From the NCBI RefSeq assembly GCF_006345805.1, contig NW_021836239.1, forward strand, positions 1-25,004: 25,004 bases of DNA. Reading direction: 5' to 3'. How positions within the stretch are numbered: the stretch's first letter is position 1; each line of letters begins with the position of its first letter. Made by a program: the position numbers. The DNA is from Octopus sinensis (taxonomy: Eukaryota). Of this stretch, positions 1,921-3,341 are shown one piece after another.

Positions 1921-3341
1921 CTATATATATAGTGGTTGTATAAAGTCAACATAACGTGACAGTCCTGTAGAGGGAATTACACCACCGCTATATAGCCCTA
2001 GGAAGCATCGACGCTTCCTGTCGGCTTTGACACATTTGGTGTGTCCTTATATTTGCAAAGGAGAGGCAAGCACCCCCACCAGCTAGAATGAGCAACCTGG
2101 AGACATGCATGTTTCTGGGTCTTGTCCGTCGTCAGTCCAGGGTAGCGTGTCCTCACTAGCGGTGGTACTTACCAAGCCTTCGCAAATATATGTATTTACA
2201 GTGAAATTTATTCACTGGTCACCGTAATTAGAAATATTGAATTTCTAAATGAGCGGTGGTGGAGCGATAGAGTGGTTGTACAAAGTCAACATAACGTGAC
2301 AGTCAATATTTCTAATTACGGTGACCAGTGAATAAATTTCACTGTAAATACATATATTTGCGAAGGCTTGGTAAGTATCACCGCTAGCGAGGACACGCTA
2401 CCCTGGACTGACGACGGGCAAGACCCAGAAACATGCATGTCTCCAGGTTGCTAGTTCTAGCTGGTGGGGTTGCTTGCCTCCCCTTTGCAAATATAAGGAC
2501 ATAGCAAATGTGTCAAAGCCGACAAGAAGCGTCGATGCTTCCTAGGGCTATATAGCGGTGGTGTAATTCCCTCTACGGGACTGTCACGTTATGTTGACTT
2601 TATACAACCACTCTATCGCTCCACTACCGCTCATGTCTCGTTGAGACATTTAGAAATTCAATATTTCTAATATGTTAGTTAGTTAGTTAGTTAGTTAATT
2701 TGGCTCAAAAGCAAATAGCAAGGCCATGTAGGGGGACATGGAGTTAAGTACAGGGTGGTGTTCATGTAAAGAGTTCAGGCCACTTGAGGTCCAGGGAGGC
2801 TTTGAACAAAGCGGTCGTCGGCATCTTCACCATCTCGTCTGGCAGCTTGTTCCACGGATCTGCAACCCGGACGGAAAAAGCTCCTCTCCTTCGATTGAGA
2901 TGAAATCGTCGCAGGTAGAGCTTTTCGGAATGACCCCGCAGCCGACGCTCCGGAGCAGGAGTGAAGAACAGCTCTTTCGAGAGGTTACACTTCCCGCTTA
3001 TTATGATGTTGTGGGCGAAAATGAGATCACCACGGCGGCGTTTTTCAAGAGAATAAAGGTCGAGCGTCCTCAGCCTTTCTTCGTAGGACAAATTTTTGAG
3101 ACCATGAACCATGCGGGTAGCCAGCCTCTGGACTCTTTCGAGATGCTGGTATGTCTTTGAGGAGATAAGGAGAAGAGGCTTGAATCCCATACTCCAATAT
3201 GGGTCTCACCAGCGTGACATAGAGTGGCAGGAATATGGCTGCTGTGAGCATTCCGAATGACCGTCGAATCAAAAAAACAGAATTCCGCGCGCTTTGTTGG
3301 CAGCATGGACGCACTGGGCCGAAGGCGAAAAGGAGGAATAT

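What the first reader, a model, noticed from the sequence alone, without database searches (positions are those of the whole stretch)
1931..2671. Candidate retrozyme: non-coding ~340-nt hammerhead monomer integrated as circularly permuted, longer-than-unit copies
Seen: the left block (minus strand, 2304 to 1931) is one 340-nt unit plus 34 nt of terminal redundancy. The right block (plus strand, 2303-2671) is one 355-nt unit plus 14 nt, starting in a different phase. Each carries a type I HHR with an intact core and no ORF. Known: metazoan non-LTR retrozymes are few-hundred-nt repeats with a type I HHR that are processed to circular RNAs and are thought to be mobilised by Penelope-like RTs. Inference: permuted, terminally redundant copies are what reverse transcription around a circular or multimeric RNA would leave, so this may be a cephalopod circular-RNA family. 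I cannot establish from sequence alone that it is undescribed.
Basis: partly seen in the sequence, partly recalled or inferred. Interest (0 to 1): 0.9.

Follow-up and report, generated by a model that had tools for sequence, protein, structure and literature searches.

The report
Hammerhead retrozyme-like repeat, inverted pair
Two back-to-back, slightly longer-than-unit copies of a non-coding 340/355-base repeat carrying a hammerhead-ribozyme-like motif sit in an AT microsatellite; they look like a new member of the known animal retrozyme / Penelope-derived elements, not a new kind of thing.

Summary
The repeat geometry is real. The left block is 2304->1931 (minus), 340 + 34 nt. The right block is 2303-2671 (plus), 355 + 14 nt. 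They are 96% identical, start in different phases and join head-to-head.

Each copy has every conserved hammerhead core base, a 6-bp helix I and a palindromic, dimer-type helix III. Helix II is weak: 3 bp in the right copy, 2 bp in the left, with unpaired bases at its foot. No Rfam hammerhead model matches.

My descriptor found the motif far more often than in shuffles, and at two further loci (about 4979-5789 and 15793-15833). Both have the same head-to-head layout beside (TA)n-type microsatellites.

The unit is non-coding, 46% GC and strongly self-paired, with the ribozyme at the tip of a long hairpin. This fits published non-LTR retrozymes and the Penelope-like insertion signature: partial tandem, inverted 5'-truncated copy, AT-rich target, both DNA strands primed.

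Three things stay untested: genome copy number, RNA circularity and cleavage. The "cephalopod" label could not be verified.

Verdict: a new member of a known kind, of moderate interest.

The parts
1892..1931 (.). (AT)n microsatellite, left flank and likely target of the insertion
   Evidence: TRF, period 2, 19.5 copies; sequence read
1931..2304 (-). Left block: 374 nt, made of one 340-nt unit plus 34 nt of terminal redundancy. Its 5' end is at 2304 and its 3' end abuts (AT)n.
   Evidence: Direct repeat D1, spacing 340; blastn; alignment
2096..2141 (-). Hammerhead-like motif of the left copy. The core is intact, helix I is 6 bp and helix II is only 2 bp. Predicted cut 2102|2101.
   Evidence: Descriptor hit with the loose setting only. 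It is missed when helix II >= 3 is required.
2298..2304 (.). Head-to-head junction of the two blocks. The overlap is 2 nt exact (2303-2304), or 5 of 7 nt imperfect.
   Evidence: Read (D3 alignment)
2303..2671 (+). Right block: 369 nt, made of one 355-nt unit plus 14 nt of terminal redundancy. It starts at unit position 65 of the left block's numbering and ends at position 78.
   Evidence: D3; blastn coordinates
2353..2495 (+). Long imperfect hairpin of the unit. The hammerhead sits at its tip, so helix I is extended by the arms 2353-2402 / 2446-2495.
   Evidence: Inverted repeat I3; MFE folds. The whole block folds at -130.3 kcal/mol, z = -6.9, and 0 of 100 shuffles fold as well.
2402..2447 (+). 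Hammerhead-like motif of the right copy: CCTGGACTGACGACGGGCAAGACCCAGAAACATGCATGTCTCCAGG. Helix I is 2402-2407 / 2442-2447. The core runs 2408-2414. Helix II is 2416-2418 / 2424-2426. GAAA is 2428-2431. The palindromic helix III is 2431-2440. Predicted cut 2441|2442.
   Evidence: The fold constrained to the hammerhead costs 3.2 kcal/mol over the MFE. The dimer cofold adopts a double hammerhead.
2632..2649 (+). 15-nt insertion of the right copy. Its placement is ambiguous by 3 nt. It forms a 7-bp mini-hairpin and explains 355 vs 340.
   Evidence: Alignment and fold; gap between arms I2 and I4
2674..2697 (-). (TAAC)6 on the minus strand, the 3' tail of the neighbouring LINE fragment. Only 'AT' (2672-2673) separates it from the right block.
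   Evidence: TRF; sequence
2698..3337 (-). 5'-truncated, frameshifted fragment of an APE-type LINE. It is a neighbour, not part of the element.
   Evidence: ORF 2762-3205(-) matches 13 proteins, of which 9 carry RVT_1 and 7 of those also Exo_endo_phos domains. Pfam on the fragment itself gave 0 families.
3338..3418 (.). (AT)n microsatellite on the far side of the LINE. The retrozyme pair plus the LINE lie inside one AT microsatellite.
   Evidence: TRF; sequence

Best explanation
The locus is one insertion, or two tightly coupled insertions, of a small non-coding retroelement of the animal non-LTR retrozyme kind. That kind is a short repeat carrying a type-I hammerhead ribozyme, probably derived from and mobilised by Penelope-like elements (PLEs).

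Proposed life cycle. All of it is inferred from the literature, not from this sequence. Tandem genomic copies are transcribed as multimers. The hammerheads have a palindromic helix III, so they pair between neighbouring units as a double hammerhead. [quoted passage not shown] The long hairpin that extends helix I holds the two ends together, and a host tRNA ligase can close the circle.

Proposed origin of this locus, also inferred. A PLE-type endonuclease/RT cut both strands of an (AT)n microsatellite. Each 3' end primed reverse transcription on a multimeric or circular retrozyme RNA. The two syntheses started at different internal sites (unit positions 34 and 78) and ran a little over one unit (374 and 369 nt). 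The two cDNA ends were joined in the middle through a 2-nt microhomology.

The copies have since drifted. They are about 4% apart, and the left copy lost one helix II pair. This particular locus is therefore probably an ageing genomic copy, not an active source.

What the sequence shows directly: the geometry, the motif, the absence of coding capacity, the fold and the microsatellite context.
For: - Geometry and permutation.
- All conserved hammerhead core bases, a 6-bp helix I and a GUC site in both copies.
- Enrichment over chance. The loose descriptor gave 4 hits in the window against 27 in 400 shuffles. The descriptor allowing one core mismatch and requiring a palindromic helix III gave 4 hits against 1 in 100 shuffles.
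- Two other hammerhead loci in the window share three traits. One is at 5026-4979(-) / 5742-5789(+), inside inverted arms 4903-5129 / 5640-5865 at 88%. The other is at 15833-15793(-), with inverted arms 15683-15744 / 15861-15920. Both have an unpaired base on each side of helix II, a palindromic helix III, and a head-to-head layout beside (TA)n / (AC)n microsatellites.
- The dimer cofold of the 58-nt ribozyme domain is -40.3 kcal/mol against 2 x -15.0. Its MFE is a double hammerhead with a 10-bp helix III and helix II formed. Constraining the circular monomer to the hammerhead costs only 3.2 and 2.8 kcal/mol.
- The monomer is strongly structured: z = -6.9; circular MFE -125.5 and -119.7.
- GC is 45.6 and 46.2%. 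The longest frame is 57 codons.
- Literature, passages read:
  - Metazoan retrozymes are 170-400-nt tandem repeats with under 50% GC, carry type-I hammerheads and give self-paired circRNAs. Mussel repeats are 350-390 bp. Size variants differing by a 20-nt indel are known. An axolotl hammerhead has a mismatch at the foot of helix II (PMC7229834).
  - PLE hammerheads have an extra base after position 9 and a palindromic helix III. They occur as pairs 100-700 bp apart on opposite strands. More-than-unit reverse transcription of circles has been proposed (PMC4209133).
  - PLE insertions form partial tandems plus an adjacent inverted 5'-truncated copy. Some PLE clades favour (TA)n (PMC8557442).
  - A purified PLE protein cleaves and extends both DNA strands at AT-rich sites. 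It starts reverse transcription at two internal RNA sites (PMC11167929).
Against: - No Rfam hammerhead family matches the motif, even at E<=10 on a 65-nt stretch. The same holds for the two other loci.
- Helix II is 3 bp (right) or 2 bp (left). In the canonical register the 10.1-11.1 pair is a C.A mismatch. The plain MFE of the 55-nt domain is not the hammerhead fold and is no more stable than shuffles (z = -0.49).
- There are only two copies, 96% alike, so there is no independent conservation or covariation. The structure-preservation test on the 13 substitutions is weak: energy p = 0.037 and 0.107, broken pairs p = 0.24 and 0.08.
- Each block is only 1.04-1.10 units long, so no full dimer is present.
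- No PLE reverse transcriptase or GIY-YIG ORF was seen in the window. 18 of the 42 frames of 100 aa or more, plus some shorter, were put to Pfam with 0 families. No six-frame search was done.
- The immediate neighbour is a LINE, not a PLE.
- The 3' ends of the two blocks are 44 nt apart in the 340-nt unit, and 59 nt in the right copy's own letters. That is longer than the published 30-40-bp PLE 'tail'.
- Copy number, transcription, cleavage and circularity are all untested.
- Shuffles destroy the local palindromes that real DNA has, so the enrichment figures are somewhat generous.
Confidence: 0.55

Rival explanations
1. The blocks are pieces of pseudo-LTRs of an autonomous Penelope-like element, either solo or tandem pLTRs left by 5' truncation or internal deletion. 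They would not belong to an independent small retrozyme family.
For: PLE hammerheads lie in pLTRs. Most genomic PLE hammerheads are single truncated remnants, and pairs on opposite strands 100-700 bp apart are described (PMC4209133). The layout of partial tandem plus inverted 5'-truncated copy is the PLE signature (PMC8557442). A 2026 preprint finds vertebrate retrozymes close to pLTRs (abstract and discussion seen).
Against: Both blocks contain a head-to-tail junction with a 340/355-nt period and no ORF in between. A simple 5'-truncated PLE would be one contiguous 3' segment without internal periodicity. Helix I of 6 bp and a short helix II look more like the 'canonical' metazoan retrozyme type than the PLE minimal type, which has helix I of 4-5 bp and helix II of 7-8 bp. 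The second locus in this window has that minimal type.
Confidence: 0.15
2. The locus arose at the DNA level. Either a short piece of a 340-bp satellite array suffered an inversion, or two independent insertions landed side by side in a microsatellite hot spot. A single double-primed retrotransposition event would not be needed.
For: The two copies differ by 13 substitutions and a 15-nt indel, so they need not come from one template. AT microsatellites recur as insertion sites in this window. Retrozyme arrays are known to behave like satellites (PMC7229834; discussion of the 2026 preprint).
Against: A fold-back or snap-back inversion would be mirror-symmetric about the junction. Here the phases at the junction differ (unit position 1 against 65). 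No microsatellite remnant separates the blocks, and they overlap by 2 nt. The within-block redundancy diverges by 1 in 34 nt and the two blocks by 3.8%, which fits one age. The same head-to-head layout occurs at all 3 hammerhead loci in the window.
Confidence: 0.12
3. The hammerhead resemblance is fortuitous. The element would be an ordinary foldback, MITE-like or SINE-like repeat with no ribozyme.
For: No Rfam hammerhead model matches. Helix II is marginal, and the domain alone does not prefer the hammerhead fold. The two copies are too alike to show selection on the motif. At the second locus one copy has lost G12, so genomic copies are not protected.
Against: Descriptor hits are 4 in the window, against about 0.07 expected with the loose setting (27 in 400 shuffles) and 0.01 with the other (1 in 100). 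Three unrelated sequence families in the window share the same unusual details. The unit's size, GC, fold and periodicity all match retrozymes. PLE-type minimal hammerheads also needed a special descriptor when they were first found (PMC4209133).
Confidence: 0.1
4. The functionally relevant product is a long hairpin RNA. Read-through of the 370-nt inverted arms would feed small-RNA pathways (endo-siRNA or piRNA), not yield a circular ribozyme RNA.
For: The arms are 96% complementary. Generic long-hairpin microRNA models score high but below threshold: MIR6217 reaches 96.7 bits against a gathering score of 110, on both strands.
Against: The hairpin is a by-product of two inverted copies. The Rfam hits are to plant hairpin families, are equal on both strands and fall below the gathering score. 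Nothing indicates transcription across the junction.
Confidence: 0.05

Closest known systems
Metazoan non-LTR retrozymes (Cervera & de la Pena 2020, PMC7229834), e.g. the Mytilus galloprovincialis 350-390-bp repeats and the axolotl 331/353-nt repeats
   Same: A type-I hammerhead in each unit. Unit size is within 170-400 nt and GC is under 50%. There is no ORF or LTR. The monomer is highly self-paired. Two size variants differ by a short indel. The helix III is dimer-type, and a mismatch at the foot of helix II has an axolotl precedent. All compared through.
   Different: Only 1.04-1.10 units per block, not dimers to long arrays. The two blocks are inverted head-to-head. Both sides of helix II carry an unpaired base. 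Expression as circRNA and copy number are unknown. There is no sequence similarity to test, because no retrozyme sequence was available in the open collections.
Minimal hammerheads in the pseudo-LTRs of Penelope-like elements (Cervera & de la Pena 2014, PMC4209133) and the PLE insertion architecture (Craig et al. 2021, PMC8557442; Frangieh et al. 2024, PMC11167929)
   Same: An extra base after position 9, a G-C first pair of helix II and a palindromic helix III. Hammerheads occur paired on opposite strands a few hundred bp apart. Insertions form a partial tandem plus an inverted 5'-truncated copy. The target is AT-rich or (TA)n. The two 3' ends are alternatives a few tens of nt apart.
   Different: There is no RT/GIY-YIG ORF, and the period is 340/355 nt. 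Helix I is long (6 bp) and helix II short (3 bp), the reverse of the PLE minimal type. The offset between the 3' ends (44-59 nt) exceeds the 30-40-bp 'tail'.
Newt satellite 2, Schistosoma Sm-alpha and cave-cricket hammerhead repeats (classical type-I hammerhead satellites; named from the introduction of PMC7229834 and my recall)
   Same: Tandem unit of about 330 bp with a type-I hammerhead that works best as a dimer.
   Different: Those form long arrays and match Rfam Hammerhead_1 (the match is my recall). This motif does not match it.

Membership tests
Hammerhead ribozyme, type I | Conserved core bases: C3 U4 G5 A6 N7 G8 A9, G12 A13 A14, the A15.1-U16.1 pair, and H17 at the cut | tested here: met
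   Both copies have CUGACGA, GAAA, A15.1/U16.1 and GUC.
Hammerhead ribozyme, type I | Three helices round the core, with helix I open (the type-I topology) | tested here: inconclusive
   Helix I is 6 bp and is extended by a long hairpin. Helix III is 3 bp plus a tetraloop, or a 10-nt palindrome in a dimer. Helix II is only 3 bp (right) or 2 bp (left).
Hammerhead ribozyme, type I | A Watson-Crick 10.1-11.1 pair (usually G-C) directly abutting A9 and G12 | tested here: not met
   In the canonical register this pair is C.A. A G-C pair comes first only if one unpaired base is allowed on each side. A 5' extra base is known in PLE hammerheads, and a U.U mismatch in the axolotl.
Hammerhead ribozyme, type I | A match to a curated covariance model (the Rfam hammerhead families) | tested here: not met
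   No hammerhead family appears at the gathering score on the window, at E<=10 on 1800-2800, or at E<=10 on 2392-2456.
Hammerhead ribozyme, type I | Site-specific self-cleavage | not testable with these tools
   Needs in vitro transcription of monomer and dimer constructs.
Metazoan non-LTR retrozyme | Short tandem repeat (unit about 170-400 bp), each unit with a type-I hammerhead | tested here: inconclusive
   A period of 340/355 nt is shown by head-to-tail junctions in both blocks. Each block holds only 1.10 and 1.04 units and one hammerhead.
Metazoan non-LTR retrozyme | Low GC (under 50%), non-coding, no LTRs | tested here: met
   GC is 45.6 and 46.2%. The longest frame round the circle is 57 codons. 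No terminal repeats exist other than the unit periodicity. PBS and PPT were not looked for specifically.
Metazoan non-LTR retrozyme | Highly self-paired monomer RNA that still lets the hammerhead form | tested here: met
   z = -6.9. The circular MFE is -125.5 and -119.7. The hammerhead constraint costs 3.2 and 2.8 kcal/mol.
Metazoan non-LTR retrozyme | Many copies dispersed in the genome | not testable with these tools
   There are only 2 copies in the window.
Metazoan non-LTR retrozyme | Expressed as linear and circular monomer RNA | not testable with these tools
   No transcript data.
Penelope-like element (autonomous) | An ORF with a telomerase-like RT and a GIY-YIG endonuclease | tested here: not met
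   There is no ORF in or beside the blocks. 18 window ORFs put to Pfam gave 0 families. The neighbouring RT-related fragment is of an APE-type LINE.
Penelope-like element insertion signature (shared by its non-autonomous derivatives) | A partial tandem plus an adjacent inverted 5'-truncated copy, at an AT-rich or microsatellite target | tested here: met
   The blocks are head-to-head, each longer than one unit, and lie inside (AT)n. The definition comes from PMC8557442 and PMC11167929.
MIR6217 / MIR7723 microRNA precursors (Rfam) | A score at or above the gathering threshold | tested here: not met
   96.7 bits against 110, and 46.9 against 200. The scores are equal on both strands, which marks a generic long-hairpin match.

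The most novel reading that the evidence does not exclude
The locus is a fossil of double-strand ('twin') target-primed, rolling-circle reverse transcription. A dimeric Penelope-type RT/endonuclease nicked both strands of an (AT)n tract. Each nick primed just over one turn round a 340/355-nt circular retrozyme RNA, giving 374 and 369 nt, and the two cDNAs were joined head-to-head. If genome-wide copies show the same thing, it would be direct genomic evidence that circular RNAs, and not linear multimers, are the transposition template of animal retrozymes. It would also define an undescribed mollusc (possibly cephalopod) family. Its hammerhead variant carries an unpaired base on each side of helix II, a feature shared by three unrelated elements in this window.
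Probability: 0.15. Interest if true: 0.65.

Novelty: new member of a known kind. Interest (0 to 1): 0.42.

Why it matters
Animal retrozymes are abundant circRNA-producing elements, and how they are mobilised has not been shown experimentally. Most described copies are long arrays, which hide the insertion event.

A short insertion with sharp boundaries shows the footprints of the integration step. This one has two inverted copies just over unit length, different phases, a microhomology junction and a microsatellite target. It ties those footprints to properties recently measured for a purified Penelope-like enzyme: cleavage and extension of both strands, AT-rich targets and internal initiation.

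If the family is multicopy, the distribution of its 3'-end phases could separate circular from multimeric templates.

The shared hammerhead variant at three loci also marks a blind spot of the Rfam models. Counts such as the 235 'hammerhead 1' loci reported for the giant squid genome (PMC6962438) may therefore understate such elements.

Tried and rejected
1. Rfam at three sensitivities on the motif and on the two other hammerhead loci gave no hammerhead family. The only strong hits, MIR6217 and MIR7723, are generic long-hairpin matches below the gathering score. I rejected them as identity.

2. The plain MFE of the 55-nt domain is not the hammerhead fold, at z = -0.49. I did not use it as support.

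3. The structure-preservation test on the 13 substitutions gave only a weak signal: p = 0.037 and 0.107 for energy, 0.24 and 0.08 for broken pairs. With two copies, no covariation claim is possible. I built no covariance model, because the only available members were found by my own descriptor and the exercise would be circular.

4. Looking for further copies through translated frames. The 56-aa frame 2375-2542(+) found no candidate in the protein collection. This is uninformative for non-coding DNA.

5. Copy number in the source genome could not be checked. I ran no scan there.

6. Organism. The atlas gives only 'commonest Mollusca, phylum known for 2'.

7. A snap-back (self-primed) origin of the inverted copy is rejected. 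It would be mirror-symmetric and would copy the (AT)n flank. Instead the right block continues through unit positions 35-78.

8. A LINE-mobilised SINE reading is rejected. The (GTTA)6 next to the right block is the sense-strand (TAAC)n tail of the minus-strand LINE, not a tail of the plus-strand block.

9. An assembly palindrome artefact is rejected. The arms are 96% alike, differ in phase and differ by a 15-nt indel.

10. The PLE 'tail' reading of the offset between the two 3' ends is kept only as a lead. The offset of 44-59 nt exceeds the published 30-40 bp. At the other two loci the one-sided extensions are about 128 and 75 nt.

11. Literature, with what I saw of each paper:
- PMC7229834: passages, and section 14 in full.
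- PMC4209133: passages.
- PMC8557442: passages.
- PMC11167929: outline, and the main text in full.
- PMC6962438: two passages.
- 10.64898/2026.07.22.740005: abstract, outline, passages, and the discussion in full.
- 'hammerhead ribozyme' + 'cephalopod': 4 papers.
- 'hammerhead' + 'octopus' + 'Penelope': 5 papers.
- 'retrozyme' + 'octopus': 3 papers.
- 'retrozyme' + 'squid': 0 papers.

From the listings and the passages I read, none of these describes a cephalopod retrozyme. The relevant ones are Figs S4-S6 and S9 of PMC7229834 and the supplementary figures of PMC4209133.
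Full report
WHAT IS THERE

The window has no N and is 37% GC. Between an (AT)n tract at 1892-1931 and a (GTTA)6 tract at 2674-2697 lie two copies of one repeat in opposite orientation.

The repeat finder and blastn agree on the layout:
- The left block reads on the minus strand from 2304 to 1931. It is 374 nt, one 340-nt unit plus 34 nt repeated at both ends, and 33 of those 34 nt are identical.
- The right block reads on the plus strand from 2303 to 2671. 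It is 369 nt, one 355-nt unit plus 14 nt, and all 14 are identical.

The blocks are 96% alike: 314 nt with 12 mismatches, 56 nt with 2, and 25 nt with none. They are circular permutations of each other. In the left block's numbering the left block runs 1..340,1..34, and the right block runs 65..340,1..78.

The aligned monomers differ by 13 substitutions (10 transitions, 3 transversions). They also differ by one 15-nt insertion in the right copy, at about 2632-2649, which forms its own 7-bp hairpin.

The two 5' ends meet at 2303/2304 with a 2-nt overlap, and the 3' ends point outward. The rest of the window holds no further copy.

THE RIBOZYME MOTIF

On the plus strand, 2402-2447 reads CCTGGACTGACGACGGGCAAGACCCAGAAACATGCATGTCTCCAGG. 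Its parts are:
- helix I, 6 bp, at 2402-2407 / 2442-2447;
- the core CUGACGA;
- a short helix II, GGG/CCC round a 5-nt loop, with one unpaired base on each side;
- GAAA;
- a helix III whose 10 nt, 2431-2440, form a perfect palindrome;
- a GUC site, with the cut predicted at 2441|2442.

The left copy is the same on the minus strand, with the cut at 2102|2101. One G-to-A change there leaves only 2 pairs in helix II.

All conserved core bases are present in both copies, so 'intact core' is literally true. The ribozyme is still atypical. No Rfam hammerhead family matches at the gathering score. None appears at E<=10 on 1 kb or on 65 nt. The domain on its own prefers another fold, at z = -0.49.

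Against chance, my own descriptor scans gave the following:

| Descriptor | Hits in window | Hits in shuffles |
|---|---|---|
| Strict | 1 | 0 in 400 |
| Middle | 1 | 1 in 400 |
| Loose | 4 | 27 in 400 |
| One core mismatch allowed, palindromic helix III required | 4 | 1 in 100 |

Dinucleotide shuffles remove the natural excess of local palindromes, so these ratios are somewhat flattering.

Energetically, forcing the hammerhead in the circular monomer costs only 3.2 kcal/mol (right) and 2.8 kcal/mol (left). Two copies of the 58-nt domain cofold at -40.3 kcal/mol against 2 x -15.0. The cofold is a double hammerhead with a 10-bp intermolecular helix III and helix II formed.

That is the dimer mode described for newt, axolotl and Penelope-like hammerheads (PMC7229834 and PMC4209133, passages).

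THE UNIT AS AN RNA

The unit is 45.6 and 46.2% GC, against 37% for the window. Read round the circle, its longest frame is 57 codons, or 40 from an ATG.

The right block folds at -130.3 kcal/mol with z = -6.9, and 0 of 100 shuffles fold as well. The circular monomers fold at -125.5 and -119.7. The hammerhead sits at the tip of a long imperfect hairpin (arms 2353-2402 / 2446-2495) that prolongs helix I. That hairpin would hold the cleaved ends together.

The 13 differences between the copies tend to be structure-neutral; several are G-U to G-C changes. The test against random mutants is weak, however: p = 0.037 and 0.107 for energy, and 0.24 and 0.08 for broken pairs.

SURROUNDINGS

Immediately right of the pair, after only 'AT', comes (GTTA)6. 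Read on the minus strand this is the (TAAC)n tail of a 5'-truncated, frameshifted LINE fragment at about 3337-2674.

The LINE's last ORF, 2762-3205(-), matches 13 proteins, 9 of which carry RVT_1 and 7 of those also Exo_endo_phos domains. Pfam itself gave no hit on the fragment. Beyond the LINE lies another (AT)n tract, at 3338-3418.

The retrozyme pair and the LINE thus sit inside one AT microsatellite. Which came first cannot be told, and no target-site duplication can be read in a dinucleotide repeat.

No PLE-type ORF was seen. 18 ORFs put to Pfam gave 0 families, but I did not run a six-frame search.

TWO MORE HAMMERHEAD LOCI IN THE SAME WINDOW

The descriptor also hit the minus strand at 5026-4979. 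That motif has helix II of 7 bp, helix I of 4 bp and an 8-nt palindromic helix III, which is the PLE 'minimal' type of PMC4209133.

Its partner is at 5742-5789 on the plus strand, where G12 is mutated. The two lie in inverted arms 4903-5129 / 5640-5865, 88% alike, between (AT)n at 4752-4775 and (AC)n/(AT)n at 5857-6000.

A third motif lies at 15833-15793 on the minus strand. It has inverted arms 15683-15744 / 15861-15920 and (TA)n arrays on both sides.

The three families share no sequence outside the core. They do share three details:
- one unpaired base on each side of helix II;
- a palindromic helix III;
- a head-to-head layout, with the left copy on the minus strand and the right copy on the plus strand.

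Rfam sees neither of the extra loci as a hammerhead.

HOW IT MOST LIKELY WORKS

The published model for animal retrozymes fits every feature that sequence can show. That model is: transcription of tandem copies, hammerhead self-cleavage to monomers, circularisation by a tRNA ligase, then reverse transcription of the circle into tandem cDNA by a non-LTR machinery, with PLEs as the favoured candidate (PMC7229834).

The particular layout here matches what is known of PLE integration:
- Insertions form partial tandems with an adjacent inverted 5'-truncated copy, and some PLE clades favour (TA)n (PMC8557442).
- A purified PLE protein cleaves and extends both DNA strands at AT-rich sites. It begins reverse transcription at internal RNA sites that are not homologous to the target (PMC11167929).

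I therefore read the locus as both strands of an (AT)n tract priming cDNA synthesis on a multimeric or circular retrozyme RNA. Synthesis started at unit positions 34 and 78 and ran for 374 and 369 nt. The two cDNAs were then joined by microhomology.

What is shown here is the geometry, the motif, the fold and the context. What is inferred is transcription, cleavage, circularisation, the enzyme, and the single-event origin.

A circle is not required, because a multimeric linear RNA gives the same product. The offset between the two 3' ends is 44 nt in the 340-nt unit and 59 nt in the right copy. It recalls the PLE 'tail' but is longer than the published 30-40 bp, so I keep it only as a lead.

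COMPARISON AND NOVELTY

In how it works, the element resembles a non-LTR retrozyme. As to membership, the sequence-level criteria are met or inconclusive: the tandem is only 1.04-1.10 units long, and helix II is marginal. The defining biological criteria (multicopy, circRNA, cleavage) could not be tested.

It is not an autonomous PLE, because it has no ORF. It is not a member of the Rfam hammerhead or microRNA families by score.

Retrozymes are already reported 'from molluscs to arthropods', with a mussel family of 350-390 bp. More-than-unit reverse transcription of circles was proposed in 2014 and 2020. Hammerhead pairs on opposite strands are also described.

My searches found no paper describing retrozymes in octopus or squid. 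One genome paper lists 235 Rfam 'hammerhead 1' loci in the giant squid without further analysis. Whether this window is cephalopod is unverified, since the only lead is Mollusca. Closed supplementary files may contain relevant mollusc motifs.

VERDICT

This is a real, non-chance feature, and the best reading is a new member of a known kind. It is moderately interesting for its clean insertion footprint and for a hammerhead variant that curated models miss. It is not surprising to a specialist.

Noticed in passing
window 4776-5932: A second hammerhead-bearing element. Its inverted arms 4903-5129(-) / 5640-5865(+) are 88% alike and 510 nt apart. The left-arm motif, 5026-4979(-), has an intact core, a 7-bp helix II, a 4-bp helix I and an 8-nt palindromic helix III, which is the PLE 'minimal' type. 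The right-arm motif, 5742-5789(+), has lost G12. The element is flanked by (AT)n 4752-4775 and (AC)n/(AT)n 5857-6000. Rfam does not recognise it.
   Followed up: partly
window 15610-15960: A third hammerhead-like motif at 15833-15793(-), with a 4-bp helix II that has a U on each side and an 8-nt palindromic helix III. It lies between short inverted arms 15683-15744 / 15861-15920 and (TA)n / (ATT)n arrays. The layout is again head-to-head, with the plus-strand copy truncated before the ribozyme. Rfam does not recognise it.
   Followed up: partly
window 2674-3337 (minus strand): A 5'-truncated, frameshifted APE-type LINE fragment with a (TAAC)6 tail. It shares one AT microsatellite with the retrozyme pair. 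The order of the two insertions is unknown.
   Followed up: partly
window 16185-16517(-) and 18808-19194(+): Two ORF remnants whose C-terminal motifs look to me (from recall) like mariner/Tc1 transposases. Pfam gave no family for either.
   Followed up: partly
window 1-91 / 20131-20221; 6015-6700 / 17638-17998; 10988-11043 / 12403-12458: Dispersed repeats 75-88% alike. They are probably SINE-like or other interspersed elements. ARAGORN finds no tRNA gene in the window.
   Followed up: no
whole window: The window is very rich in (AT)n, (AC)n and related microsatellites. All three hammerhead loci abut such tracts, which fits a microsatellite insertion bias.
   Followed up: partly
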